Origin: Isosphaeraceae bacterium
GTDB taxonomy: Bacteria > Planctomycetota > Planctomycetia > Isosphaerales > Isosphaeraceae
Direction: 5' to 3'
DNA: 37,513 bases
Assembly: GCA_043738665.1 (NCBI GenBank)
Contig: JAYUFP010000536.1
Coordinates: forward strand, 1 to 37,513
Part shown: positions 14,137 to 35,190 of the stretch, in pieces
Layout: each line of letters begins with the position of its first letter
How positions within the stretch are numbered: position 1 is the stretch's first letter
Translations under genes and position numbers: made by a program
Notes under the pieces: model-generated
What the model was told of the DNA's origin: nothing
The model's input: only the letters and a program-made list of their open reading frames with translations
Database searches by the model: none

Positions 14137-14473
14137 GTAGGGTGGGTCAGCCCCTTTCAAGGTGTGCGAACGGTTCGACGGAGTGCCCCTTTTTCAGCCC
14201 CGAAGGGGCGGCGGAAATGCGGCCCGGCGGGTGACTCCGCCGCCCCTCCCGGGCTCGTCGGGATGATGACGTGACGGCCTGTTCCAGGGGCTTTCGCCCC
14301 TGGCTATTGACGGTCGCCCCTCCGGGGCTAGGGAAAACAAAGACTGCATCGTAATGTGAGGGAACGTCGAAGGTGAGTCGCACACCTTGAAAGGGGTGAG
14401 CGGGTCAGCGCGGCGCGACCCGCCACGCAGGCCGGTGCCATCCGGTGGGTTGCGCTCCGCTGACCCACCCTAC
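14137..14473. repeat. MITE-like nested palindromic element (about 337 nt)
   Basis: Outer 15-bp inverted repeat gtagggtgggtcagc (14137-14151) / gctgacccaccctac (14459-14473). Inner 19-bp inverted repeat cccctttcaaggtgtgcga (14151-14169) / tcgcacaccttgaaagggg (14378-14396). Several small GC hairpins lie inside. Confidence 0.8.
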
Positions 14474-21092: not shown

Positions 21093-21506
21093 ATGGCGAG
21101 CCCGAGCCCGAAACACCGAGGACCCAAGGCGGTCTCCGACATCCTCGCGGAACTCTTCGCCGCGAAGGGGCTCGCCAGGCTCGGCGCCGCGAAGGCGCTC
21201 GAAGACGCCTGGAACGCGGCGGTGGGCGAGCCGCGTTGCAAGCTGACAAAGCTCGGCGAGGTCCGCCGGGGGATCCTGAACGTCACGGTGGCGCACTCAG
21301 CCTTGCTCGAAGAACTCGCCGCGTTCGAAAAGTCGAGGCTCCTGAAGGCCCTCCGCCAAAGCGTCCCCGACCTCTCCGTGCTCGACATCCGGTTTCGCGT
21401 GGGTCCAATCCTCACGACGCCCAAAGAGCCTAATAAGGCCGAAAACCCGCCCCACCGGCCTTTCGGCGGGAAACGTAATGGCAAGCGAACCGAGGAGGGC
21501 TACTGA
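21093..21506 (+). CDS. dciA: DUF721 / DciA-like protein
   Basis: VSDILAELFAAKGLARLGAAKALEDAWNAAVGEPRCKLTKLGEVRRGILNVTVAHSALLEELAAFEKSRLLKAL matches the DUF721 pattern and the usual position between dnaN and gyrB. Start uncertain (21093 preferred; the track gives 20973). Confidence 0.8.
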   Translation: MASPSPKHRGPKAVSDILAELFAAKGLARLGAAKALEDAWNAAVGEPRCKLTKLGEVRRGILNVTVAHSALLEELAAFEKSRLLKALRQSVPDLSVLDIRFRVGPILTTPKEPNKAENPPHRPFGGKRNGKRTEEGY

Positions 21507-22273
21507 TGGAACCGCGATCGCCGACCTCGGCGGTGCTTGAGCCCTTGCCGGTGCCGTTGGATCAACTGTATCGGATGTCGCCCGAAGTCTACCAAGGGAT
21601 GATCGAGCACGGCCTGTTGAACGCCGACGGCCGGGACCGAGTGGAACTCGTCGATGGCTTTTTGGTCGTGGAAGGTGTGTCGGCTGATCCCATTGACAGG
21701 CTCTACCGGATTCCCCTGGAGGTTTACCTTGAGACCGCCGAGATCGGGTTGCTCGGGCCGCCGGATAAGGTCGAGATGCTTGACGGGGTTCTGGTGAAAC
21801 AGATGACCAAAGGCCACCCGCATTACACTGCGACGATGTTGGTTGTAGAGGCCCTCAAAGCGATCATCTCAAAAGGCTGGATCGTCAGACCCGAAGGCCC
21901 TGTCGCCCTGTCATCAGGCCCAAAAGGGCGTCCGTCGGTTCCGGAACCCGACGTGACGGTTGCCCGAGGTGCATGGCGTGATTATTCGAGCCGCAATCCG
22001 ACACCGGAAGACACCGCGCTGGTCGTCGAGGTGGCCGACAGCTCCCTGCGTAAGGATCGGAAGGGGCTGGCCCGCTATTCGTGGACGAACATCCCCGTCG
22101 TCTGGATCGTCAACCTGAATGAGCAAACCGTCGAGGTCTACTCCCGGCCGACCGGCCCGGGCGAATTTTCGAAATATCAAGAAATGACGACTTACGGCCC
22201 GGATGACGAAATTCCCGCGGTGATCGACGGGCATGAGGTCGGCAAGGTCGCCGTGAAAGACTTCTTGCCCTGA
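21506..22273 (+). CDS. Uma2 (DUF820) family restriction-endonuclease-fold protein, paralogue 1
   Basis: PEPDVTV...ALVVEVADSSLRKDRKGLARYSWTNIPVVWIVNL. TGATG overlap with the DUF721 gene. The N-terminal LYRxxxEVY...VELxDGxLV segment is duplicated. Confidence 0.85.
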   Translation: MEPRSPTSAVLEPLPVPLDQLYRMSPEVYQGMIEHGLLNADGRDRVELVDGFLVVEGVSADPIDRLYRIPLEVYLETAEIGLLGPPDKVEMLDGVLVKQMTKGHPHYTATMLVVEALKAIISKGWIVRPEGPVALSSGPKGRPSVPEPDVTVARGAWRDYSSRNPTPEDTALVVEVADSSLRKDRKGLARYSWTNIPVVWIVNLNEQTVEVYSRPTGPGEFSKYQEMTTYGPDDEIPAVIDGHEVGKVAVKDFLP

Positions 22274-22363
22274 CTCATGGTTTCGGCCGCGTTGAGACGC
22301 GATGTTCCAGGGGTCTTATCGGATTTGCTTGTCGGAAGCGGTAACCGAGGAGGGCTTTTGATC

Positions 22364-23128
22364 ATGGAACCGCGAACGCAGACCTCGGCGTTGCTTGAGC
22401 CTTTGCCGGTCCCCGTGGATCAGCTCCATCGGATGTCGCCGGACGTTTACGAATCGATGATTGCGCACGACCTTATCAGGAAGGACGACAAGGTCGTTTT
22501 GCTCGACGGGGTGCTCGTGAAAAAAAACGCCTCGTCATCGAATTCGCCCGATCGTTTTTACCGAATGACGACCGACCTGTATCACGAGATGGCCGATCAC
22601 GGTCTGTTGAGACCACAAGACAAGATCGAGCTTCTCAACGGCCTTTTGGTGAAGAAGATGCCCAGAGGAGCGCCTCACGTCACCATCACCCAACGGCTGG
22701 TCGACGCGTTGAACGACCTTGCCGTGAAAGGCTGGTATGTCCGAAAGGAAGACCCGATCACGTTGCCCGAGGGACCGGACGGCGGGGGGAGTGAGCCGGA
22801 ACCGGACGTGGTTGTCACACGGGGGGGGCGCGACGACTACGAAGATCACCATCCCGGCCCGGAGGAGGTGGCGCTCGTCGTCGAGGTCGCCGATAGCTCG
22901 CTCCGCGAAGACCGCGAGGCGTTGCCGATTTATGCCTGGTCGGGGATACCCGTCGTCTGGATCGTGAACAAGAAAGAAAAGTTGATCGAAGTCCATTCGA
23001 ATCCGACGGGATCCGTTCACACGGCACGTTTTCAAGAGGTCGTCACGTTCACCGACGCGGACGACATCCCGGTGGTGATCGACGGCCGCGAAGTCGGCCG
23101 GATCTCCGTCAAATCCATCGTTCGTTGA
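22364..23128 (+). CDS. Uma2 (DUF820) family protein, paralogue 2 (tandem duplicate)
   Basis: Start at MEPRTQTSALLEPLPVPVDQLHRM. The RBS-plus-start string aaccgaggagggct..atggaaccgcga is duplicated from 21489-21515. PEPDVVV...ALVVEVADSSLREDREALPIYAWSGIPVVWIVN. Confidence 0.85.
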   Translation: MEPRTQTSALLEPLPVPVDQLHRMSPDVYESMIAHDLIRKDDKVVLLDGVLVKKNASSSNSPDRFYRMTTDLYHEMADHGLLRPQDKIELLNGLLVKKMPRGAPHVTITQRLVDALNDLAVKGWYVRKEDPITLPEGPDGGGSEPEPDVVVTRGGRDDYEDHHPGPEEVALVVEVADSSLREDREALPIYAWSGIPVVWIVNKKEKLIEVHSNPTGSVHTARFQEVVTFTDADDIPVVIDGREVGRISVKSIVR

Positions 23129-23176: not shown

Positions 23177-25732
<2,556 letters not shown>

Positions 25733-25746
25733 CGAATGATGCTTTG

Positions 25747-25771
25747 TAAGGTGGGCACCGCCCACCACGGC
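25747..25771. terminator. REP-like GC hairpin immediately after gyrB
   Basis: gtaaggtgggcaccgcccaccacgg contains a 6-bp stem (ggtggg/cccacc). Same core as 16814-16833. No clear U-tract. Confidence 0.45.
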
Positions 25772-25858
25772 CAGAGTCCAAAGGATCGGGGTGCCCCCCC
25801 GTGTACAAGCTGAAACCGTGGTGTTCAGGTCGGGCAAATCAATCGGGGCTTAGAGGCT

Positions 25859-27121
25859 ATGACCAGGACTGAATTAGAAGAAGAACAGTTACTACCTCTT
25901 GTGCAAAATGCTCCCACCGCATTTCTCCGACGTCTAAAGATTCGGAATTACAAGAGTATCGGTAATTGCGACGTTGAACTCAGACCCCTAACGGTATTGG
26001 TTGGTCGAAACGGCTCGGGAAAGAGTAATTTTCTCGACGCGCTGCGATTTGTTGCAGACGCACTAAGGACATCTCTCGATCATGCGATCAAATCTCGCGG
26101 CGGCATCGACGAGGTTAGACGGCGCGTCGCAGGTCACCCAAACAATTTCGCATTGGAACTGGAGGTCGACCTTGGAGACGGCCGTTGGGCGCACTACGGT
26201 TTTGAAGTGGCGGCACGAAAGAAAGGCGGATTCTCGGTCAAGAAGGAAGCTCTTCAAATTCGAGGAGGTCTAAACCAACTGGTGGGTTCATACCGTCTCG
26301 ATGAAGGGAAACTGACCCATTCTAGCGAGACGCCAATGCCCCCAGCGTCTTCCGACCGACTGTATCTGGTGAACGCCGCCGGTCTTCCTACATTTCGCTC
26401 TGTTTACGATGCGCTACTTACGATGGGATTCTACAACCTGAATCCCGAATCGATGAAGGCTCTCCAGAGTCCGGACGCGGGAGAAATCTTACATCGCGAT
26501 GGTGGGAACATCGCGAGCGTGATCGGTCGGATTGGCAACGACCGTCCGCCAATCAAAGAGCGAATCAAGGAATACCTGGCAACGATTGTACCCGGTGTAA
26601 CGGACGTCAGTCGAATTCCTCTTGGGCCTAAAGAGACACTAGAGTTTCGTCAAAAGGTACACAAGTCGCCCTCGCCCTGGAAATTCCTCGCGAATAGTAT
26701 GTCAGATGGAACATTGCGGGCTCTTGGAACGCTTGTCGCCGTCACCCAGTTGGCGGAAGGGGCCGCACCTGTTAGGTTAGTAGGCATTGAGGAACCGGAG
26801 ACCGCGCTTCATCCCGCAGCGTCGGGGGCCTTGATGGATGCGTTGCGAGAAGCGGCGGTCCATACTCAAGTTGTGGTGACCACACACAGCCCCGATCTTC
26901 TTGACAGAGTCAATCCTGAAACTGACCGACTTCTCGTCGTCGAGATTCGCGATGGAGATACTAAAGTCGCCCCCATCGACGCCGCCAGTCTCAAGGTCAT
27001 CAAGAAGCAATTGTATACGCCTGGCGAACTCCTTCGCATGGACCAACTCGAGCTTGATTGGAGAGACCTCGAACGTCAAAAACAAATTGATATGTTCGAA
27101 TATTCGGAGCCGCGGAAATGA
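25859..27121 (+). CDS. ABC-type (AAA_15/AAA_21, OLD/RecF-like) ATPase
   Basis: LKIRNYKSIGNCDVELRPLTVLVGRNGSGKSNFLDAL (Walker A), LVGIEEPETALHP (Walker B/D-loop), VVVTTHSPDLL (H-loop). GC clearly lower than the flanks. Confidence 0.88.
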   Translation: MTRTELEEEQLLPLVQNAPTAFLRRLKIRNYKSIGNCDVELRPLTVLVGRNGSGKSNFLDALRFVADALRTSLDHAIKSRGGIDEVRRRVAGHPNNFALELEVDLGDGRWAHYGFEVAARKKGGFSVKKEALQIRGGLNQLVGSYRLDEGKLTHSSETPMPPASSDRLYLVNAAGLPTFRSVYDALLTMGFYNLNPESMKALQSPDAGEILHRDGGNIASVIGRIGNDRPPIKERIKEYLATIVPGVTDVSRIPLGPKETLEFRQKVHKSPSPWKFLANSMSDGTLRALGTLVAVTQLAEGAAPVRLVGIEEPETALHPAASGALMDALREAAVHTQVVVTTHSPDLLDRVNPETDRLLVVEIRDGDTKVAPIDAASLKVIKKQLYTPGELLRMDQLELDWRDLERQKQIDMFEYSEPRK

Positions 27122-27732
27122 GCCGCCTCCGGGTTGTTCCCATAGTCGAGGGAAATGGAGAAGTCGAATGCGTTCGCATCTTAATTGAGCGCATCTGGGC
27201 TATGGTAGGGGGGGAGTATGTGTCGGTATGCCGTCCGATTCTTCAGTCACGTGGTCTTCTGGTCAAGAAAGAAGGTCTGACCAGAGCGATTGATTTGGCG
27301 AGAGAAAAACTCGGAGATCTTCCCGAGTCTTCTGATCCGGAAATGGTATTGATTCTGCTCGACGCGGATGAAGACTGTGCTTATGAGTGGGGGCGAAAGC
27401 TGCTTGGATGGGGCCGTGAAGCGCATTCCGATCTCGATTTGGCGTGTGTACTGGCAGTGAGCGAATATGAGACCTGGTTTGCGGCCTCGGCTGAGTCACT
27501 CAAGAAATCCCTCGATCTTCCCCCTGATTTCGTTGCGTCGGACGACTCGGAAAAATCCCGGCACGGGAAGCGCTGGGTCGAACGCTATCGACGCGGGGCG
27601 AGTTATCAGGAGACCATCGACCAGCCTAAGATGACCAGCGTGATGGACCTAGATTTATGTCGCAGGCGTTCGCGGTCGTTTAACAAACTCTGTCGCGAAT
27701 TTGAACAGCGACTTGGTAAAGAAATCGCCTGA
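27118..27732 (+). CDS. DUF4276-like protein (Toprim-like, putative nuclease partner of the ATPase)
   Basis: ATGA overlap with the ATPase gene. PIVEGNGEVECV (Toprim-type Glu) and LILLDADEDC (DxD). About 200 aa, as in DUF4276. Confidence 0.75.
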   Translation: MSRLRVVPIVEGNGEVECVRILIERIWAMVGGEYVSVCRPILQSRGLLVKKEGLTRAIDLAREKLGDLPESSDPEMVLILLDADEDCAYEWGRKLLGWGREAHSDLDLACVLAVSEYETWFAASAESLKKSLDLPPDFVASDDSEKSRHGKRWVERYRRGASYQETIDQPKMTSVMDLDLCRRRSRSFNKLCREFEQRLGKEIA

Positions 27733-27871
27733 TGGCGAGGCCCCGGCACCCGTCGAAGGAAATAGAGTCCGCGGTGTCTTACGCCGAATCGCTTGGCTGG
27801 ACGTTCCTTCCCGTCGGGCGGGCATGTTTGGGGGATTCTGAGGTGTCCCCATCAGGGCCAGGAGTGAGACC
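27732..27871 (+). pseudogene. possible frameshifted small ORF (MARPRHPSKEIESAVSYAESLGWTF... / ...GGHVWGILRCPHQGQE*)
   Basis: ATG overlaps the DUF4276 stop (TGATG). The N-part is in one frame, and the +1 frame then reads PSGGHVWGILRCPHQGQE-stop just before the next gene. The switch coincides with a C-run (cttcccgtc). Confidence 0.3.
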
Positions 27872-28141
27872 ATGCCCGCCACGCTGAAAACCTATGCGTT
27901 CTCCGTCGTCCTGGCGGGCGTCGATGAGTTGTCGAAAAAGATCGCCGACGCCGTCTTTGAGGCCGGTTGCGACGACGCGGGCGTCGGGAGTTGCGAAGGG
28001 GTGGTGACCGTCGATTTCGACCGCGAGGCGGATTCCCCGGGTGATGCGATCGGGTCCGCCGTCAACGACCTGGCAAACGCCGGGTTCGCCGTGGCCAGGG
28101 TCGTCGTGGAAGCCCGGGCAGAGGGACGACCGCGCCGTTGA
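27872..28141 (+). CDS. small acidic hypothetical protein (89 aa)
   Basis: MPATLKTYAFSVVLAGVDELSKKIADAVFEAGCDDAGVGSCEGVVTVDFDREADSPGDAIGSAVNDL. Host-like GC. From memory it resembles a recurrent uncharacterised small-protein family. Confidence 0.6.
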   Translation: MPATLKTYAFSVVLAGVDELSKKIADAVFEAGCDDAGVGSCEGVVTVDFDREADSPGDAIGSAVNDLANAGFAVARVVVEARAEGRPRR

Positions 28142-28525
28142 GCCGGACAAGGCCAGTTCAGTCCGGACGGGAAAACGCACGACGGCGTCGGGAGTTTCGG
28201 AATTTTTGTTCAAGTTCGCGAGGTTTTTACGCCCTTATGGGTCGTTTTCGGCGGCGCCGGGCAAAGTCCTTCGGCGATCGGAACGGCGACTGCGTGAAGG
28301 GACAGTGAGACCTTGATCGGTGTCAGTGTCCGTCAGTCAGGCGAAAGTCCGTACGGCGTGAACTCTTGGTGAGGCACTCCTCCCCGCGTCGGGCCGGTCC
28401 CGCCGCACCCGAGGTTCCAGTGCGTGTCGGTGTGGCCTCGCCCCCCGGCGTCGGTTCGGTTCAATTCGATTCGTGACAGGACGCCCCGACCGCACCACGG
28501 TCCGGTGATCGGTATTTGGGAACGA

Positions 28526-31500
28526 ATGATGGGGATCGCCCAGAAGATATCCAGGGATTTCAGCGACGCGGTCCGCTCTCGCGGGCAGTCGTACTTCGCC
28601 AAGGGGCGCGTGGTCATCACGGGCGCGACCGCCGGTGAGGTCGCGGCGCGGGTGCGGGGGACGGCCAAGTACCGCGTCCGCCTCCGGCTCCGCAACGGCA
28701 GGCTCCACATCGCCTGCAGTTGCCCCTATTTCACGCCCACCGGCGACCCCTGCAAACACGTCTGGGCCACCGTGCTGATGGCCGACGCGAGGGGACTCAT
28801 CCAGCCTTCGCCGGTCCGCCCCTTGAAACTCGTCAGCGACGTCCCCAGGCACCCCCAGGGCACCCCGGAAAACGGCCCGGCAGGCCCGCAAAACTACGCC
28901 GGGGGTCCCGGACAGCAGGGACAAAGGCCAGGCCCGGGTCCGCAAGGGCAAGGCTACGGCCAGAGGCAACAACAACCCGGCGGCCCCGGCCCGCACGGTC
29001 CCGGCCGACAAGGACCCGGTCAGAACGGCCCGGGGCGGCAAGGTGCCGGTCCCAACGGACCCGGAAGACCAGGCACCGGCCAGAACGGCCCGGGGGGGCG
29101 GCAGGTTCCCGGCCCGCACGGCCCGGGCCGGCAAAGCCCCGGTCATGGTCCCGGTCCCGGTCCCGGACCCGGTCCGAACGGACCCGGTCAGCCTCAGTTG
29201 CGTGGAAAGAAAGATCGTCGAGGGCGAGTGGTTCCCGGTACGCAAGGTCCCGGCCCCGGTACGGGTTACGGTCCCGGCCCCGGCTCGGGTTACGGCCCCG
29301 GCCCGGGTTCGAATTACGGTCCCGGCCCCGGTCAACCCTGGGTCGCCGGTCGCGAGCGTGGTGACAGGACCCGTGAAAAGGTCGACGCCAAGGCGCGTGC
29401 CAAGGTCGTCAACCGCGGGGCCAAGCGGCTGCTCGTCTTCGTGATCGACGTCCCTTCGACCCTCGCTCAGAGCCAGGTGGTCGTCGACCTCTATCGTCGC
29501 CAGCGCCGTCCCGGCGGCGACTGGGGTCCGCTAAAACCCTGGTGGCACTCGCCGGACTCCGCACAGGCCAAGTACGACCCCGACGACCGCGACTTGCTCG
29601 TCCTGCTCGAAGACGCGCAGACCCCCTCCGCGGCGGCGGCGGCGGCGGCCTCGTCGTCACCTTTGGCGGCGGCCAAGGCGCTCCTGAACGGCACGAATCC
29701 GCCGCCGGGAACGGGCGACTCGGTCGGCACCAGGCGCTACGTCCTCAAGCCCGACCGGATCGACGTCGTCGAGGCCCTCGCCAAGAGCGGCAGACTCCGC
29801 CTGAAACGCACCGAGGGCGAAGACGACCCCCCGACCATGCGCTGGGACGACGGCCCGACCTGGCGGTTCGGACTCGACGTCAAACCCGAACTCGGCGGCA
29901 AACGCTGGTCGTGGCGCGGGGCCTTGCGTCGCGGAGAGCCCAAACCCGACCGCATGGACCTCGCCGAACCCCTGGTGCTCGTCCCCGGACTGTTAATCCT
30001 CGGGGTCGGCCGCGCCGCGCGATTCGACGACGTCGGCGTCATGACATGGATCATCAGACTCCGCCACGAAAAGGAAATCGTCTTCGCCGAGCCCCAGCAG
30101 GACATCATGCTCGGCAGGATTCTCGGCGAGGCCAAGATCAGCGCGACCGAACTGATCGACACGATCCAGTTCGAGGAGATCGACACCAAACCCCGCCCCT
30201 GCCTGACGATCCGCGCCCCCCGGCAGAACTGGGGGGCCGCGGCCGACAAGCTCCTCGCCGAACTCGAATTCGACTACGACGGCGCGGTCATCCCGGCGGG
30301 ACGCACGACCCCCATGGCGGTCTCCACCGAGCACGGCCTGTCGATCCGCCGCGACACCGCCACCGAACATGCCGCCGACATTCTTTTATTCGAGATGGGC
30401 TTCCGTGAGTCGAAAGACCCCCGCGTCGAACCGGGGACCATGGAGATCGCCGCCAAGCGTGCCGCGCAGGTCTCTCGGGACCTCGCCGCGGTGGGCTGGC
30501 GGGTCGAAGCCGAAGGGAAGCTGATCCGCCCCGCGGGCGAGTTCAAGCTCTCGGTCACCACGGGGATCGACTGGTTCGAGCTCGACGGTCATGTCGATTA
30601 CGGCGGGGCCACGATCCCCCTGCCCGAACTCCTCGCCGCGGCGCGCCGGGGGGAGACCTCGGTCACCCTCAGCGACGGCTCCGTGGGCGTGCTTCCTGAG
30701 GAGTGGATCAAGAAATACGGCCTGCTCGTCGACCTCGGCACCGAGGAAGACGGTCACTACCGCTTCGGCACGTCGCAGGCCGGGGTGCTCGACGCCCTGG
30801 TCGCCGCGCAGCCGGACATCCGCGTCGACGAGGCGTTCGAAAAGATCCGCCAGAGCCTGACGAAATTCGAAGGGATCGTTCCGCTCGACGCCCCCTCGGG
30901 GTTCCACGGCGAACTCCGCCCGTATCAGTGCGAAGGCCTGGGCTGGCTCGATTACCTCGTCCGGTTCGGCTTCGGGGGAATCCTCGCCGACGACATGGGC
31001 CTGGGCAAGACCGTGCAGGTGCTGGCGTTCCTTCAAAGACGAAGGACCCGCAGGCAGGCGAAAGGGCCGACGCTGGCGGTGGTGCCGCGCTCGCTCGTGT
31101 TCAACTGGATCCAGGAGGCCGCGAAGTTCACGCCGAGGCTCCGGGTTCTCGACTACACCGGCCCCAACCGGCACCCGCTCCGCGAGGAGTTCCGCGACTA
31201 CGACCTGATCGTGACCACTTATGGAACCCTCCGCACCGACATCGCCGAGCTGACCGGGATCGAGTTCGACTACATCCTGCTCGACGAGGCCCAGGCGATC
31301 AAGAACGCCGAGAGCCAGGCCGCCAAGGCCGCAAGGCTCCTGCGAGGCAAGCACCGGCTGGCGATGAGCGGAACGCCGATCGAGAACCACCTGGGAGAAC
31401 TCTGGTCGATCTTCGAATTCTTAAACCCCGGGATGCTCGGGACCAACCCCGTCTTCAAACGGCACACGACGGGCGCGGGAGCCCTGGATGACACCGACCG

Positions 31501-32290
31501 CCAGATCCTGGCCAGGTCGCTCAAGCCGTTCATCCTCCGAAGGACCAAGGCCCAGGTGGTTCAGGATTTGCCCGAAAAGACCGAGCAAACCCTCCACTGC
31601 GACATGGAGCCCGCCCAGCGGAAGATTTACGAGGAGTTGCGGACCCACTACCGCACGGCCCTCTTGAGGAAAGAAACCGCCGAGCTGAACCGTTCGAAGA
31701 TCGAGGTGCTGGAAGCCCTCCTCCGGCTCCGCCAGGCGGCGTGCCACCCCGGCCTGATCGACCCGACCCTCACTTCCGAGCCCAGCGCCAAGCTCGACAT
31801 GCTCTTGCCGCAGATCGCCGAAGTGGTGGAGGAAGGGCACAAGATCCTTGTTTTCTCGCAGTTCACGAGCTTCCTGGCGATCGTCAAGGAACGCCTCGAC
31901 AAGGAAGGCCTGGTCTACGAATACCTCGACGGCCGCACGAGAAACCGCGAGGAGCGCGTGAACCGGTTCCAGAACGACCCGACCGTGAAGATCTTCCTGA
32001 TCAGCCTGAAAGCGGGCGGTTTAGGTTTGAATCTCACCGCGGCCGAATATGTCTATTTATTAGATCCCTGGTGGAACCCCGCCGTCGAAGCCCAGGCCAT
32101 CGACCGTTCGCACCGGATCGGCCAGACCCAGAGGGTTTTCGCGTACCGATTGATTTGTCGAGACACGGTCGAGGAAAAGATCCTCGAACTCCAGCAAAAG
32201 AAGCGCGACCTCGCCGACGCGATTTTGAACGCGGACAACCGGGTGATCTCGAATCTGTCGCGGGAGGATCTGGAGTTCTTGCTGTCGTGA
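28526..32290 (+). CDS. SWIM zinc-finger + SNF2-family helicase/translocase (about 1254 aa)
   Basis: SWIM CSCPYFTPTGDPCKHVWA; SNF2 motifs LRPYQCEGLGWL, LADDMGLGKTVQ, LDEAQAIKN, SGTPIENHL; C-terminal helicase motifs FLISLKAGGLGLNLTAA and WWNPAVEAQAIDRSHRIGQ. Start taken at ATGATG 28526. Confidence 0.93.
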   Translation: MMGIAQKISRDFSDAVRSRGQSYFAKGRVVITGATAGEVAARVRGTAKYRVRLRLRNGRLHIACSCPYFTPTGDPCKHVWATVLMADARGLIQPSPVRPLKLVSDVPRHPQGTPENGPAGPQNYAGGPGQQGQRPGPGPQGQGYGQRQQQPGGPGPHGPGRQGPGQNGPGRQGAGPNGPGRPGTGQNGPGGRQVPGPHGPGRQSPGHGPGPGPGPGPNGPGQPQLRGKKDRRGRVVPGTQGPGPGTGYGPGPGSGYGPGPGSNYGPGPGQPWVAGRERGDRTREKVDAKARAKVVNRGAKRLLVFVIDVPSTLAQSQVVVDLYRRQRRPGGDWGPLKPWWHSPDSAQAKYDPDDRDLLVLLEDAQTPSAAAAAAASSSPLAAAKALLNGTNPPPGTGDSVGTRRYVLKPDRIDVVEALAKSGRLRLKRTEGEDDPPTMRWDDGPTWRFGLDVKPELGGKRWSWRGALRRGEPKPDRMDLAEPLVLVPGLLILGVGRAARFDDVGVMTWIIRLRHEKEIVFAEPQQDIMLGRILGEAKISATELIDTIQFEEIDTKPRPCLTIRAPRQNWGAAADKLLAELEFDYDGAVIPAGRTTPMAVSTEHGLSIRRDTATEHAADILLFEMGFRESKDPRVEPGTMEIAAKRAAQVSRDLAAVGWRVEAEGKLIRPAGEFKLSVTTGIDWFELDGHVDYGGATIPLPELLAAARRGETSVTLSDGSVGVLPEEWIKKYGLLVDLGTEEDGHYRFGTSQAGVLDALVAAQPDIRVDEAFEKIRQSLTKFEGIVPLDAPSGFHGELRPYQCEGLGWLDYLVRFGFGGILADDMGLGKTVQVLAFLQRRRTRRQAKGPTLAVVPRSLVFNWIQEAAKFTPRLRVLDYTGPNRHPLREEFRDYDLIVTTYGTLRTDIAELTGIEFDYILLDEAQAIKNAESQAAKAARLLRGKHRLAMSGTPIENHLGELWSIFEFLNPGMLGTNPVFKRHTTGAGALDDTDRQILARSLKPFILRRTKAQVVQDLPEKTEQTLHCDMEPAQRKIYEELRTHYRTALLRKETAELNRSKIEVLEALLRLRQAACHPGLIDPTLTSEPSAKLDMLLPQIAEVVEEGHKILVFSQFTSFLAIVKERLDKEGLVYEYLDGRTRNREERVNRFQNDPTVKIFLISLKAGGLGLNLTAAEYVYLLDPWWNPAVEAQAIDRSHRIGQTQRVFAYRLICRDTVEEKILELQQKKRDLADAILNADNRVISNLSREDLEFLLS
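28855..29335 (+). repeat. Gly/Pro/Gln-rich low-complexity coding insert inside the SNF2 gene
   Basis: Translation GPQNYAGGPGQQGQRPGPGPQGQGYGQRQQQPGGPGPHGPGRQGPGQNGPGRQGAGPNGPGRPG...GPGPGTGYGPGPGSGYGPGPGSNYGPGPGQ, with degenerate DNA tandem repeats. Confidence 0.9.
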
Positions 32291-32315: not shown

Positions 32316-33764
32316 ATGTCGCAGATTGACGCCGATGAAAATGAGAAGATATTGATCATGAGTGAATTTCGCAAAGCCACGAAACTGAGCGAAGTCGCGG
32401 CGGTGATCGATCTGGAACCGCTAGGCCTGAAGGATAAGCGATACGAGAACCTTGCCGCCGGCCGTGGCGGGTCAAATGAACTCGCGGAGTTACGCGAGTG
32501 TCTCAAGAACTACGACGCCTCGGACAACAGATTCGCCAAGATCGCCTTCACGGGGCATCGCGGTAGCGGCAAGACCACCGAGCTCTATCGTCTCGAAGAC
32601 GACGTTTCCGACCGCTTCACGACCGTTCACTTTACTGCCGACGAGGCCCTGCTCGGCGAATATGATTACACCGACCTGTTCCTCTGGCTGGTTGACGAGA
32701 TCGTCCGAAAATTCGAGGCCGACGGGATGCCTCTCGACCGCCAACTCGCCGAGCAGGTCGCCCGTTGGTTCGATGCCGTGACCATGAAGCAGACGGACAA
32801 GGTGACTTCGGAAATCAAGCTGGAGACCGAGGCAAGCGCCGGCGTCAAGACGGGGCTATTCGGATTGAGTTTGGGGATTTTCGCCAAGCTGAAATCGATG
32901 ATGAAGGGGAGCACCGAGCGCCGGAAAGAGATCCGTCGGGATCTTCAAAACAAGTCGTCCGAGCTGATCGCGGGCGTCAATTTGTTACTCGACAACGCCC
33001 ACAAGGTTCTCGCCGAGAACAATAAGCCGGCCAACTTGTTGATCGTGATCGACAACCTCGACCGCCTTACGCCGGAGGTTAGCGGCCCGCTGTTCTTCGA
33101 AAACGGTGAATTCCTCAAGCAACCCCGGGCCCATCTGATCTACACCGTGCCGGTCGCCACGGCGCTCGACCCGTCGATGAACATCGACATGGTCTTCGAC
33201 CGGACGTTCACCCTCTCGATCGTCAAAGTCCGTGACCCTGCGGGCCGGCTTTTCAAGAAAGGGCTCGACGCGCTGGTGGAGACCGTTGCCAAGCGGGTCG
33301 AGATCGACGCGGTGTTTGCAAAGCGAGACGTCGTCCGGAAGCTCGCGGAGATGTCGGGAGGCAGTGTTCGCGACCTCATGAGGCTCATCGGCAACGCTCA
33401 GCTCAGCGCCGCCGCCGACGGAAAAACCAAGATCGACGCCGCCTCGGTCAAACGTGCGGTCCTGAAGATTCGCCTCAGCTTCGAGCGTCTCCTGATCCCG
33501 GGCCAGGTCTATTATCCCCTGCTCGCTCAGATCCACGATTCCAAGCGAGATCGCTCCGACGGCCTTTTAGCCGCCGACCCCGAAAAAGTCGAGACATATC
33601 GCAACTTCTTCAATCATCTCCTCTTCAACGGCTCGGTCCTCGAATACAACGGCGACCGGATGTGGTACGATGTCCACCCGGTGATTCAGGAAATCGAGGC
33701 GTTCAAGAAGGCCTTGAAGGATGTCCAAAGCACCGCGCGAGACAAAGCCTCGGGCACGGGGTAA
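32316..33764 (+). CDS. KAP/STAND-like P-loop NTPase (482 aa)
   Basis: Walker A FTGHRGSGKTTEL. A KAP-style Walker B LLIVIDNLDRLTPE lies about 170 aa later. The insert contains the hydrophobic stretch GVKTGLFGLSLGIFAKL. There is a sensor/lid-like MSGGSVRDLMRLIGNA and a C-terminal winged-helix-like region. Confidence 0.85.
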   Translation: MSQIDADENEKILIMSEFRKATKLSEVAAVIDLEPLGLKDKRYENLAAGRGGSNELAELRECLKNYDASDNRFAKIAFTGHRGSGKTTELYRLEDDVSDRFTTVHFTADEALLGEYDYTDLFLWLVDEIVRKFEADGMPLDRQLAEQVARWFDAVTMKQTDKVTSEIKLETEASAGVKTGLFGLSLGIFAKLKSMMKGSTERRKEIRRDLQNKSSELIAGVNLLLDNAHKVLAENNKPANLLIVIDNLDRLTPEVSGPLFFENGEFLKQPRAHLIYTVPVATALDPSMNIDMVFDRTFTLSIVKVRDPAGRLFKKGLDALVETVAKRVEIDAVFAKRDVVRKLAEMSGGSVRDLMRLIGNAQLSAAADGKTKIDAASVKRAVLKIRLSFERLLIPGQVYYPLLAQIHDSKRDRSDGLLAADPEKVETYRNFFNHLLFNGSVLEYNGDRMWYDVHPVIQEIEAFKKALKDVQSTARDKASGTG

Positions 33765-35190
33765 AAAGGCCGAGAACGAGCGCGAACTCCGCGAACTCGC
33801 GCTCTTCCTCGAAGAGGCCCCCGGCTTCCGTCTCGGCCTGGCCTGCATCGACAATGTCCAGACCCGCCAGACCCAGCTCGAACGCCTCGAAGAGATCATC
33901 GCCTCCCGACCGGTCTTTCTGACCCGGCTCGACCTCGGGAAATTTCGAGACGAAGAGCAGATCCTCCAGAGGCTCCGAGACCACCTCCGCGACAATCCCG
34001 CCCCCGAAGGCAAGACCGCCGCCGTGATGATTATTGGGCTTGAAGCCCATCTCGATTACCGAGACCTCGGCGAAGGAAAAGTTCCCCCGCAACCGATCCT
34101 CCGAAACGCCAACATCCAGCGCGACGCCTACTCCCGCCTCTGCCTTGTTCCCATCGTGCTCTGGCTCTTGCCTTCGGCCGAAACGCTCTTCGCAAAGGAA
34201 GCCCCGGATTTCTGGCACTGGCGGGCGGGAACGTTTCGGTTCATGGCGCCTGCGGGACAGCGAAAGAAATGGGAGGACAATCAGATCGAGATGCCGATTT
34301 TCCAATCCCGGAATCTTTTGGTCTCTGATAAGTCCGATCGGATCTCGCTTCTGAACGATTTGCTTTTTGAACTGGAAAATGCGACCGACCGAGAAACCCG
34401 AGGGAATAAAGCCCGACGGGCCGCCCTCTTGCTGCAACTTGGGAGAGCTTACTTGTTGATGTCTAAAGAAGATGTCGGACTAGACTACTCTCGGAGGGCG
34501 GTTGAACTCTATGTTGAGATCAGCGATCGTCAAGGAGAGGGGATGGCGCTTTGCGATCTTGGTACCTCTTGTGCTCAGCTTAATATGTTTGAGGATGCTT
34601 TAGGATATTTCGAGAAGAGTTTAGCCATCACACGCGAGATCGGAGACCGTGAGGGTGAAGGAACGCTACTTGGCTGTCTAGGCTTTGCCTATGCCGGCAT
34701 GGGGTTAAGAGAAAGAGCTATCGAATACGACGAACAGAGTTTGGCGATTGCGCGTAAAGTGAAGAATCGTGAAGGAGAAGGAACAATATTGGGTCAGTTA
34801 GCTTCTATATACGCTCACAACAAGGAATTTGAAAAGGCGATTCTCCATCAAGAAGAGAGCTTAGCGATCGCCCGTGAAATCGGCAACCGCCGAAGTGAGG
34901 GATCAATCCTCGGAAATATCGGAGCGACTTATGCCAGAATGGGTCAGATAGAGAAGGCGATCGGTTGCCATGAGTTGAGTTTGGCGATCGCCCGTGAAAT
35001 GGGCGACCGTCGTAGCGAAGGCACTGAACTGAGCAATCTGGCCTACACGTACGCCCGCATGGACCAAAAAGCGAAGGCGATTGAATTCCTCAAAGAAGCA
35101 CTTCGAATTGGGCAACAAATTAATGATTCACTAATTATTAATATCGCTATCAAAGGAATCCGTTTTTTGCACTTAGAGTTAAAAACGTAA
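33721..35190 (+). CDS. TPR-repeat protein with a P-loop-less STAND-like N-terminal domain (489 aa)
   Basis: The start overlaps the upstream gene by 44 nt (AAGAAGG about 8 nt upstream). The N-domain GFRLGLACIDNVQTRQTQLERLEE...AAVMIIGLEA...NIQRDAYSRLCLVPIVLWLLPSAETLFAKEAPDFWHWRAGTFRF has no GK[ST]. The C-terminus has six 40-aa TPR units (SLAIAREIGDRRSEG...). Confidence 0.85.
   Translation: MSKAPRETKPRARGKKAENERELRELALFLEEAPGFRLGLACIDNVQTRQTQLERLEEIIASRPVFLTRLDLGKFRDEEQILQRLRDHLRDNPAPEGKTAAVMIIGLEAHLDYRDLGEGKVPPQPILRNANIQRDAYSRLCLVPIVLWLLPSAETLFAKEAPDFWHWRAGTFRFMAPAGQRKKWEDNQIEMPIFQSRNLLVSDKSDRISLLNDLLFELENATDRETRGNKARRAALLLQLGRAYLLMSKEDVGLDYSRRAVELYVEISDRQGEGMALCDLGTSCAQLNMFEDALGYFEKSLAITREIGDREGEGTLLGCLGFAYAGMGLRERAIEYDEQSLAIARKVKNREGEGTILGQLASIYAHNKEFEKAILHQEESLAIAREIGNRRSEGSILGNIGATYARMGQIEKAIGCHELSLAIAREMGDRRSEGTELSNLAYTYARMDQKAKAIEFLKEALRIGQQINDSLIINIAIKGIRFLHLELKT

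What the first reader, a model, noticed from the sequence alone, without database searches (positions are those of the whole stretch)
25859..27732. Low-GC insert encoding a split OLD-like nuclease: ABC ATPase + DUF4276 Toprim-like protein directly after gyrB
Seen in sequence: GC drops from the mid-60s to about 47-50 % (by eye) exactly over two genes joined by an ATGA overlap. Gene 1 has ABC-ATPase Walker A, Walker B/D-loop and H-loop motifs. Gene 2 has a Toprim-type Glu (IVEGNGE) and DxD (LLDADED) in a protein of about 200 aa, as in DUF4276. Established knowledge: OLD-family proteins fuse this ATPase to Toprim. Gabija GajA, PARIS AriA/AriB (AAA_15 + DUF4435 Toprim) and AbiL/RloAB are defence systems built on the same logic. 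Inference: the AAA + DUF4276 pairing is a predicted anti-phage or abortive-infection module that is, to my knowledge, not experimentally characterised. Here it was acquired horizontally into the conserved replication locus.
Basis: partly seen in the sequence, partly recalled or inferred. Interest (0 to 1): 0.62.

Follow-up and report, generated by a model that had tools for sequence, protein, structure and literature searches.

The report
Known HEC-01 ATPase-nuclease pair beside gyrB
Two overlapping genes after gyrB encode an ABC ATPase and a small Toprim-type nuclease of the already catalogued candidate anti-phage family HEC-01; the pair is an old, decaying resident of this site in a group of Isosphaeraceae, so it is a fairly ordinary accessory element.

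Summary
Two intact ORFs (25859-27121, 420 aa; 27118-27732, 204 aa) overlap by ATGA, lie 126 nt after gyrB and form the lowest-GC stretch of the contig. Their GC is 53% (GC3 52-55%, against 83-85% in the flanks), not 47-50%.

Gene A is an ABC ATPase with all motifs intact. Gene B is DUF4276 with a Toprim fold and conserved E11, D82/D84, E118 and K151.

Both match PADLOC HEC-01A and HEC-01B full length (1.6e-157, 4.6e-57). The pair is therefore a member of a catalogued family, not an unrecognised pairing.

HEC-01 has been tested twice, once without protection and once with. The related MAD3-MAD4 pair is a 2:2 ATPase/DNA-cleaving complex.

The "horizontal insert" reading is only partly right. The family's usual order is gyrB-SNF2. 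The pair or its decayed remnant fills that junction in 9 of 27 resolved Isosphaeraceae genomes and in three or four metagenome contigs.

This includes all seven members of the window's own well-supported host clade. The acquisition is therefore old and was inherited vertically, with fast divergence and decay.

Most likely it is a split OLD-like sensor-nuclease defence module. It is a new member of a known kind and of modest interest.

The parts
23189..25732 (+). gyrB (847 aa), the conserved upstream anchor of the site
   Evidence: ORF. 84% identical to the same-genus genome and 65-80% across the family. Homology with relatives stops within a few nt of its stop codon.
25733..25858 (+). 126-nt spacer between gyrB and hecA; SD-like AGAGG lies before the ATG
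   Evidence: Sequence. No + strand sigma-70-like promoter or terminator-like site. Not conserved in relatives.
25859..27121 (+). hecA: HEC-01A-type ABC ATPase (420 aa)
   Evidence: PADLOC PDLC04178 1.6e-157, aa 18-414 on profile positions 4-395 of 399. Pfam AAA_21/AAA_15. AF2 model pLDDT 91; best folds are Rad50, SMC and PtuA heads, E about 1e-13.
26003..26026 (+). Walker A GRNGSGKS (aa 49-56)
   Evidence: Read. G49, N51, G54, K55 and S56 are invariant in 118 homologues.
26123..26353 (+). Hypervariable beta-rich insert of HecA (aa 89-165), the presumed sensor surface
   Evidence: 26-60% identity here, against 52-80% elsewhere in the same pairwise comparisons. Strands E96-155 in the model. Payne et al. 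propose that the ABC inserts set specificity.
26699..26719 (+). ABC signature-like motif MSDGTLR (aa 281-287)
   Evidence: S282 and D283 invariant; the neighbouring residues are at least 90% conserved.
26783..26800 (+). Walker B with catalytic Glu, GIEEPE (aa 309-314), followed by LHPAA
   Evidence: E311, E312, P313, E314 and H318 invariant.
26879..26899 (+). H-loop TTHSPDL (aa 341-347)
   Evidence: H343 and S344 invariant.
27118..27732 (+). hecB: HEC-01B / DUF4276 Toprim-like nuclease (204 aa); its start overlaps the hecA stop (ATGA)
   Evidence: PADLOC PDLC04196 4.6e-57, full length. Pfam PF14103. AF2 model pLDDT 95, pTM 0.91. Best PDB fold hits are OLD C-terminal regions 6njv, 6njx and 6nk8.
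27142..27162 (+). Toprim Glu motif IVEGNGE (aa 9-15; E11)
   Evidence: E11, G12 and G14 are 100% conserved and E15 94% in 83 homologues.
27355..27375 (+). DxD-type acidic motif LLDADED (aa 80-86)
   Evidence: D82 100%, D84 67%, D86 81%.
27463..27477 (+). Second acidic cluster EYETW (aa 116-120)
   Evidence: E118, T119 and W120 invariant; E116 82%. MAD4's metal pocket also uses E119/E121; this is a positional analogy and was not aligned.
27568..27570 (+). Invariant Lys151 of HecB
   Evidence: 100% conserved. It may be the counterpart of MAD4 K164, beside the pocket; this is an inference.
27733..28514 (+). Rest of the variable segment up to the conserved SNF2 start. It holds a frameshifted small ORF (27732-27870) and orf89 (27872-28141, host-like GC)
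   Evidence: Homology with relatives resumes only at about 28515. orf89 is conserved only in the same-genus genome (72%) and hits PADLOC PDC-M06B at 2e-11.
28424..32290 (+). SWIM-SNF2 helicase, the conserved downstream anchor of the site
   Evidence: Pfam. It follows gyrB directly in 18 related genomes.

Best explanation
The two genes are a member of the HEC-01 family, a split OLD-like module. HecA is an ABC ATPase and HecB is a DUF4276 Toprim-fold, metal-dependent nuclease. The genes are translationally coupled.

Inferred by analogy with MAD3-MAD4: the two proteins assemble into a heteromeric, probably 2:2, complex. In that complex the ATPase dimer holds and controls the nuclease.

Inferred: the hypervariable insert of HecA (aa 89-165) senses a phage or mobile-element cue. 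HecB then cuts nucleic acid, which blocks the invader or kills the cell. DNA is the more likely substrate, as for MAD3-MAD4. tRNA, as for PARIS AriB, is not excluded.

Shown here on the evolutionary side: the cassette is not a recent arrival. It entered the gyrB-SNF2 junction before the window's seven-member Isosphaeraceae clade diverged. Since then it has been inherited with unusually fast divergence and repeated decay. The family as a whole moves between phyla as a bare two-gene unit.
For: Family identity: full-length PADLOC HEC-01A/B hits at 1.6e-157 and 4.6e-57; Pfam AAA_21 and DUF4276.

Folds: the HecB model (pLDDT 95) best matches OLD Toprim regions (E 2.4e-4, prob 1.00, TM 0.41). The HecA model (pLDDT 91) matches Rad50, SMC and PtuA heads.

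Catalytic residues are intact and conserved: Walker A, signature, Walker B and H-loop in HecA; E11, D82, E118 and K151 at 100% in HecB.

Obligate pairing: hecA lies directly upstream of hecB in 78 of 80 GTDB loci. The 4-nt overlap is kept in 7 of 7 called contigs and in G026.

Accessory behaviour: HecB homologues occur in 31 of 121 family genomes. Remnants sit at the same site in G004 and G093, the pair is frameshifted or degenerate in G114/G115, and hecA is disrupted beside an IS element in one contig.

A hypervariable insert is present. GC3 is 10-30 points below the flanks in every host.

Literature: HEC-01 is described as ABC ATPase plus TOPRIM. One representative was protective. MAD3-MAD4 is a 2:2 complex with ATPase and Mg-dependent DNA cleavage.

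Age of the insertion: all seven hosts of a clade with SH-aLRT 100 carry the pair or a remnant. The trait needs only 4 changes on the host tree, against a shuffled mean of 9 (0 of 500 shuffles as low). The gyrB-site HecB copies cluster in one subtree.
Against: There is no functional data for this subfamily. The one HEC-01 tested by the family's authors protected against none of their phages, and the positive report is a single screen.

The structural match to OLD Toprim is modest (TM 0.41). D84 of the DxD motif is conserved in only 67% of homologues.

The cassette is not in a defence island. Its upstream neighbours are housekeeping genes such as gyrB, ftsZ, thiC and glyA.

Cassette similarities do not follow the host tree. 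G000's HecA is 73% identical to a more distant host's copy but about 50% to its sister genome's N-terminal part. Purely vertical descent therefore needs strong rate variation or allele exchange.

Persistently low GC3 is odd for an old resident.
Confidence: 0.75

Rival explanations
1. Recent one-off horizontal insertion: the low-GC cassette entered this genome lately from a lower-GC donor.
For: Sharp GC/GC3 drop. G000's HecA is 66-68% identical to Phycisphaerae, Pirellulales and Acidobacteriota copies but only 50-56% to same-family copies. The family tree mixes phyla.
Against: The same junction holds the pair or its remnant in all seven hosts of the window's clade. The nearest known copies (HecA 73%, HecB 64%) are also at gyrB-SNF2. 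No donor above 76% identity exists among 5.8 billion proteins. No att repeats, integrase or tRNA were found. GC3 is depressed in every host's copy.
Confidence: 0.05
2. Selfish addiction-type (toxin/antitoxin-like) cassette. It persists at the 3' ends of essential operons because loss is costly, and gives the host no real anti-phage benefit.
For: It sits beside essential genes in different lineages: gyrB in Isosphaeraceae and in a Thermoguttaceae MAG, and ftsZ in six Acidobacteriota loci. There is no defence-island context. HEC-01 was negative in the original phage screen. The MAD3-MAD4 paper ran a toxicity assay, but I did not read its result.
Against: The cassette decays freely: remnants in G004 and G093, loss in most of the family. 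Strong addiction should prevent that. A hypervariable sensor-like insert fits an arms race better. One HEC-01 did protect.
Confidence: 0.12
3. Housekeeping DNA-repair or topology role tied to gyrase. An ABC ATPase plus Toprim protein would act as a RecF/RecR-like or SbcCD-like partner at the replication locus, in a class that lacks canonical recF.
For: It sits where recF usually lies. recF (TIGR00611) scores above cut-off in 0 of 25 Planctomycetia genomes, while recR is present in 23 of 25. It is on the same strand as gyrB, with a short spacer and no terminator-like site. A second, independent gyrB-adjacent case exists in Thermoguttaceae.
Against: It is absent from 18 of 27 resolved junctions and decayed in several others, so it is dispensable. 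recF is missing whether or not the pair is present. HecA matches recF only over the P-loop (33.6 bits against a cut-off of 172). Elsewhere the same family sits in unrelated contexts. Two small genes or an IS element can separate it from gyrB.
Confidence: 0.05

Closest known systems
HEC-01 (PADLOC-DB candidate system; Payne et al., bioRxiv 10.1101/2024.01.29.577857)
   Same: Both proteins hit HEC-01A and HEC-01B models full length at 1.6e-157 and 4.6e-57. Architecture matches: adjacent, co-oriented ABC ATPase plus a roughly 200-aa TOPRIM protein.
   Different: Here the pair is not embedded in an Hma system. It stands alone between housekeeping genes in a planctomycete, and this subfamily has never been assayed.
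MAD3-MAD4 of the Pseudomonas aeruginosa MADS system (NAR 2026, PMC13662399)
   Same: P-loop ATPase plus separate DUF4276 Toprim-like protein. Acidic metal pocket with a nearby Lys. This is the only biochemically and structurally characterised pair of this kind: a 2:2 heterotetramer with ATPase and Mg-dependent DNA cleavage.
   Different: HecA scores 104.6 bits against the MAD3 equivalog cut-off of 420. HecB matches no MAD4 model. There is no eight-gene mad operon, methyltransferase or MAD7/8.
OLD-family nucleases (class 1 P2 Old; class 2 Bp/Xcc OLD) and Gabija GajA
   Same: ABC ATPase coupled to a Toprim nuclease with Glu plus DxD. HecB's best PDB fold hits are OLD C-terminal regions. HecA hits the Old and GajA models.
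   Different: In OLD and GajA the ATPase and Toprim are fused in one chain; here they are two genes. There is no GajB/UvrD partner. TM-score is only about 0.41.
PARIS (AriA/AriB)
   Same: Two-gene split of an AAA_15/21 ABC ATPase sensor and a Toprim effector. HecA hits AriA models at 1.9e-28. DUF4276 appears in the PARIS paper's AAA15/21 tree.
   Different: AriB is DUF4435, which HecB does not match. HecA is far closer to HEC-01A. tRNA cleavage has not been shown for DUF4276 proteins.
AbiL / RloA-RloB and Menshen (NsnB with DUF4276-type NsnC)
   Same: ABC ATPase plus small Toprim-superfamily partner. AbiLi hits at 4e-25 and NsnB at 2.6e-24. DUF4276 and RloB were assigned to Toprim in PMC12065111.
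   Different: The partner is not RloB (PF13707). There is no NsnA, and the scores are much weaker than for HEC-01.

Membership tests
HEC-01 (PADLOC) | Protein matching a HEC-01A ABC ATPase model | tested here: met
   PDLC04178, 1.6e-157, 522.6 bits, aa 18-414 on profile positions 4-395 of 399.
HEC-01 (PADLOC) | Adjacent, co-oriented protein matching a HEC-01B (TOPRIM/DUF4276) model | tested here: met
   PDLC04196, 4.6e-57, aa 1-200 on profile positions 1-193 of 197. 4-nt overlap, same strand.
HEC-01 (PADLOC) | Anti-phage activity | not testable with these tools
   Literature only: negative, and one representative positive.
HEC-01 (PADLOC) | Embedding within an Hma system (how the family was discovered; not required by the model set) | tested here: not met
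   The neighbours are gyrB and a family-conserved SWIM-SNF2. There is no methylase. HmaA matches only the generic helicase C region at 5e-16.
Toprim superfamily / DUF4276 (PF14103) | Pfam gathering threshold; conserved Glu after strand 1 and DxD after strand 3; Toprim-like alpha/beta fold | tested here: met
   41.1 bits against 30.2. E11 and D82 at 100%, D84 at 67%. Strand-helix alternation in the model, and OLD Toprim regions are the top PDB hits.
OLD-family nuclease (class 1/2) | ATPase and Toprim fused in one polypeptide | tested here: not met
   Two separate ORFs, with a stop at 27119-27121.
MADS (MAD3-MAD4) | MAD3 equivalog score; MAD4 partner; mad1-8 operon with methyltransferase | tested here: not met
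   NF047739 scores 104.6 bits against a cut-off of 420. No NCBIfam hit for HecB. No mad neighbours.
PARIS | AriB (DUF4435 Toprim) partner | tested here: not met
   HecB matches only HEC-01B models and DUF4276.
Gabija | Fused GajA plus GajB UvrD-like helicase | tested here: not met
   GajA models hit only the P-loop region, aa 23-70. No UvrD-like neighbour.
RecF/RecR | recF equivalog (TIGR00611) score | tested here: not met
   33.6 bits against a cut-off of 172, N-terminal 45 residues only. The genome's real recR lies elsewhere, at C557.

The most novel reading that the evidence does not exclude
The site, not the pair, may be the interesting part. HEC-01 cassettes may dock in a lineage-fixed way at the 3' end of essential operons: gyrB in Isosphaeraceae and, independently, in a Thermoguttaceae MAG; ftsZ in Thermoanaerobaculia-type Acidobacteriota. 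Once docked, alleles with different sensor inserts may be exchanged by recombination through the conserved flanks. In the boldest form, the module is functionally coupled to its neighbour, guarding gyrase or DNA topology against phage-encoded inhibitors.
Probability: 0.1. Interest if true: 0.6.

Novelty: new member of a known kind. Interest (0 to 1): 0.27.

Why it matters
The finding adds a planctomycete subfamily to a widespread candidate defence family that has barely been tested. HecA has at least about 8000 database relatives, and 315 GTDB loci were confirmed for this HecB type.

It also shows that a compositionally foreign-looking cassette can be an old, vertically inherited resident. GC anomaly alone is therefore a poor clock for acquisition.

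The fixed position next to gyrB, with a hypervariable sensor insert and natural pseudogene series, gives a convenient comparative set for studying how such split OLD-like modules diversify and die.

It does not reveal a new kind of system.

Tried and rejected
1. Insertion scars. No flanking direct or inverted repeats beyond chance-level 11-24-mers. No tRNA or other Rfam element near the pair. No integrase.

2. Precise boundaries. Intergenic DNA is not alignable beyond the same genus, so only the variable segment 25733-28514 can be given.

3. Transcription signals. No + strand promoter-like or terminator-like site between gyrB and hecA. This is uninformative for planctomycetes.

4. RNA evidence.

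5. Sequence search of the PDB with the HecB profile found nothing at E<=0.1. The MAD4 structure seems not to be in the copies used, so the residue correspondence to MAD4 is positional inference only.

6. RecF-substitute idea. Rejected because recF is missing in the whole class regardless of the pair.

7. Carriage on mobile elements. Only three Streptomyces plasmids (32-38% identity) and one phage record (28%) hold a HecB relative.

8. Query-anchored identity matrices and FastTree trees were treated as rough and were redone with IQ-TREE.
Full report
OBSERVATION

The window holds two intact, same-strand ORFs at 25859..27121 (420 aa, here hecA) and 27118..27732 (204 aa, hecB). They share ATGA at 27118-27121. 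gyrB ends at 25732, 126 nt upstream.

Gene-level GC is 52.8% for hecA and 53.5% for hecB (GC3 52% and 55%). The flanks are much higher: gyrB 63.9% (GC3 85%), dnaN GC3 91% and the downstream SNF2 gene 66.8% (GC3 83%). In 300-nt windows GC is 0.49-0.57 inside and 0.60-0.75 outside.

The interval is the lowest-GC window of its size on the contig. HecA's GC3 lies at about the 2nd-3rd percentile of 2981 long ORFs of the 5.8-Mb assembly.

Its by-eye '47-50%' is a few points too low.

WHAT THE PROTEINS ARE

HecA matches Pfam AAA_21 (5e-28) and AAA_15 (4e-22). HecB matches DUF4276 over its whole length (2.9e-10, above the gathering score).

The PADLOC hits are decisive. HecA matches HEC-01A model PDLC04178 at 1.6e-157 and HecB matches HEC-01B model PDLC04196 at 4.6e-57, both end to end. 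Hits to AriA, AbiLi, NsnB, mad3, Old and GajA are far weaker. In NCBIfam, HecA reaches only 104.6 bits on the MAD3 equivalog (cut-off 420), and HecB hits nothing.

An AlphaFold2 model of HecB built on 120 homologues is confident (pLDDT 95, pTM 0.91). Its best PDB fold matches are the C-terminal Toprim regions of the class-2 OLD nucleases of Xanthomonas and Burkholderia (6njv, 6njx, 6nk8; E 2.4e-4 to 8e-3, TM about 0.41).

The HecA model (pLDDT 91) matches Rad50 and SMC heads and the Septu/retron ATPase PtuA at E about 1e-13.

Across 76-118 HecA and 83-120 HecB homologues the catalytic residues are kept:
- HecA: Walker A, MSDGTLR, GIEEPE, LHPAA and the H-loop.
- HecB: E11, G12, G14, D82, E118 and K151 are invariant; D84, D86 and E116 are present in 67-82%.

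All of these are intact in the window's copies. Both proteins look active.

WHAT IS KNOWN ABOUT THIS KIND

Payne et al. (bioRxiv 10.1101/2024.01.29.577857) defined HEC-01 as an ABC ATPase plus TOPRIM protein found embedded in Hma systems. Their representative protected against none of their coliphages.

A cold-seep study reports that one HEC-01 representative protected E. coli B against at least one of T4, T5 and T7.

DUF4276 was assigned to the Toprim superfamily in the Menshen analysis (PMC12065111).

The MADS components MAD3 (ATPase) and MAD4 (DUF4276) were recently shown to form a 2:2 heterotetramer. ATPase activity, DNA binding and Mg-dependent DNA cleavage depend on that assembly. The metal pocket is acidic (D12, D55, D81, E83, E119, E121) with K164 beside it (PMC13662399).

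The statement that the pairing is uncharacterised is therefore out of date. This particular subfamily, however, is untested.

GENOMIC CONTEXT AND HISTORY

Record titles place the relatives in Isosphaeraceae, Planctomycetota. Across the family the usual order is dnaN-dciA-gyrB-SNF2(SWIM).

In 18 resolved genomes gyrB is followed directly by SNF2.

The hecAB pair fills exactly that junction in:
- G000.
- G001, the same genus, where the pair is split over two contigs.
- G026.
- G014, with a frameshift in hecA.
- G114 and G115, frameshifted or degenerate.
- G116, seen only from the SNF2 side.

Only remnants survive in two genomes. G004 keeps HecA aa 283-393. G093, a 99%-complete genome, keeps HecB aa 92-201 with a stop.

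Metagenome contigs carrying the nearest database homologues show the same arrangement:
- L143: HecA 73% and HecB 64% identical, the closest known.
- L055.
- L056: an IS element lies after gyrB and hecA is disrupted.
- The P0123 contig, probably; no DNA was available.

On a gyrB+SNF2 host tree, all seven hosts of the window's own clade (SH-aLRT 100) carry the pair or a remnant. A second clade (G026, G114, G115) and the long-branched G014 also carry it. The trait needs only 4 changes, against a mean of 9 for shuffled labels (0 of 500 shuffles as low).

The gyrB-site HecB copies fall together in a 16-leaf subtree of an 86-leaf tree. G000, G026 and L055 group in the HecA tree (SH-aLRT 89).

The cassette was therefore already at this junction before the window's clade diverged. 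It is not a recent insertion into this genome.

Homology to relatives stops at the gyrB stop codon and resumes at about 28515, the conserved SNF2 start. The whole 25733-28514 segment is variable. No att-like repeats, tRNA or integrase are present.

COMPLICATIONS

The pair diverges far faster than its neighbours. G000 against G001 gives gyrB 84.5% and SNF2 92.7% identity, but the HecA N-terminal part is about 50% and the HecB C-terminal fragment 61%.

Similarities do not follow the host tree. G000's HecA is closest to L143's copy. Over aa 166-308 it is more similar to Phycisphaerae, Pirellulales and Acidobacteriota copies (69-76%) than to those of G001, L055, L056 or G026 (52-58%).

The segment aa 89-165, a beta-rich insert in the model, is hypervariable at 26-60% identity.

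GC3 of the pair is 10-30 points below the flanks in every host examined.

These facts fit either strong lineage-specific acceleration or exchange of cassette alleles through the conserved flanks. I could not separate the two. Both are typical of conflict genes.

WIDER DISTRIBUTION

A pattern scan of one genome per GTDB species confirmed 315 HecB relatives. The best 80 lie in Planctomycetota of all classes, Acidobacteriota, Myxococcota and one Chitinophaga bin. The tree interleaves these taxa.

hecA is directly upstream of hecB in 78 of 80 loci. The 4-nt overlap recurs in every contig with gene calls.

The upstream neighbours are housekeeping genes: ftsZ in six Acidobacteriota loci, then gyrB, thiC, glyA and others. 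There is no enrichment of integrases or defence genes.

One Thermoguttaceae MAG also has dnaN-dciA-gyrB-hecA-hecB, with a cassette from a different branch of the tree. This is an independent second case of gyrB adjacency. It is suggestive, but it is one case in 77 and was noticed post hoc.

Relatives are rare on plasmids and phages in the collections searched.

MECHANISM

Shown:
- Family membership.
- ABC ATPase and Toprim-like folds.
- Intact, conserved catalytic residues.
- Obligate, translationally coupled pairing.
- Accessory, decaying, fast-evolving behaviour.

Inferred from MAD3-MAD4, OLD, Gabija and PARIS:
- HecA dimers bind and regulate HecB in a heteromeric complex.
- The variable insert of HecA senses an invader-derived cue.
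- HecB then cleaves DNA (more likely) or tRNA, which stops the infection, possibly at the cost of the cell.

I put about 0.75 on this overall reading. Family identity is near certain. The defence function is about 0.7.

RIVALS

A recent one-off transfer is contradicted by the shared synteny.

A purely selfish addiction cassette is weakened by how readily the pair decays.

A housekeeping RecF/RecR-like or gyrase-linked role draws on one fact: canonical recF is missing in 25 of 25 Planctomycetia genomes, while recR is present. Three points count against this role:
- recF is missing whether or not the pair is there.
- The pair is absent from two thirds of resolved junctions.
- Elsewhere the same family sits in unrelated contexts.

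VERDICT

The pair is a correctly recognised split OLD-like ATPase-Toprim pair. It belongs to an already named candidate defence family, and a relative has now been characterised biochemically. It is an old resident of the gyrB-SNF2 junction rather than a fresh insert.

It is a new member of a known kind and of modest interest. Earlier notes of this scan describe many HEC-01 pairs with the same 'fixed site, fast-changing cassette' behaviour in other phyla. That agrees with what I found independently here. I treat those notes as leads, not as evidence.

Noticed in passing
whole genome G000 and 24 relatives (class level): Canonical recF (TIGR00611) scores above its cut-off in 0 of 25 Planctomycetia genomes; only P-loop N-termini match. 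recR (TIGR00615) is above cut-off in 23 of 25. The dnaN-gyrB locus carries dciA instead of recF.
   Followed up: partly
window 27732-28141: An ATG overlapping the hecB stop opens a small ORF (MARPRHPSKEIESAVSYAESLGWTF...) that seems frameshifted; the +1 frame ends ...GHVWGILRCPHQGQE* just before the next ATG. The following 89-aa ORF has host-like GC, is 72% conserved in the same-genus genome only, and hits PADLOC candidate PDC-M06B at 2e-11 over its N-terminal 60 residues.
   Followed up: partly
window 21506-23128; L055 1-2681; L035 10334-10999: The number of Uma2-family genes between dciA and gyrB varies: two here and in G001, four in metagenome contig L055, at least one in G093, and none in most of the family. 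This is a second variable spot in the replication locus. Both copies here hit PADLOC PDC-S03 weakly.
   Followed up: no
window 32316-35190; L055 12245-15110; L056 14114-16618; L054 4718-5998: The KAP-like NTPase + TPR gene pair after SNF2 is conserved in the relatives that carry hecAB. The TPR gene is a second low-GC patch (53%, GC3 58%). It has already been followed up by another agent.
   Followed up: no
G000 contigs C456:3404-5093 (+), C661:8988-10809 (-), C551:3233-3594, C361:5758-5871: The same genome holds at least two more, distantly related ATPase + DUF4276 pairs and two DUF4276 fragments. The C661 ATPase is also a GC3 outlier at 0.516.
   Followed up: partly
L068, L069, L081, L083, L089, L099 (Acidobacteriota MAGs): In six Acidobacteriota loci the hecAB cassette sits directly after ftsZ, at the end of the dcw cluster. 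The FtsZ proteins are 84-88% identical, while the HecA copies fall on different branches. This is the same 'fixed site, divergent cassette' pattern as at gyrB.
   Followed up: partly
L085 (Thermoguttaceae MAG, chromosome 1, 16-29 kb): An independent dnaN-dciA-gyrB-hecA-hecB arrangement in another order of Planctomycetia, with a cassette from a different branch of the HecA tree.
   Followed up: partly
L055 5654-6619; L143 1285-2400; L021 8015-8416; L056 4886-6234: Other cargo at the same junction in relatives: two small genes (118/168 aa and 201 aa, no Pfam hit) between gyrB and hecA in two contigs; a 133-aa ORF that I recognise from memory as XisI-like (no search run) after hecB in G014; and an IS5-like transposase pair after gyrB in L056.
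   Followed up: no
window 14284-14329: Acido-Lenti-1 sRNA motif (RF01687, 46.6 bits, E 1.3e-7). It is the only Rfam hit in the window.
   Followed up: no
window 28424-28525: The SNF2 ORF as listed starts at GTG 28424. Homology with all relatives begins at about aa 32-35 (MMGIAQK), so the true start is probably near 28526.
   Followed up: no
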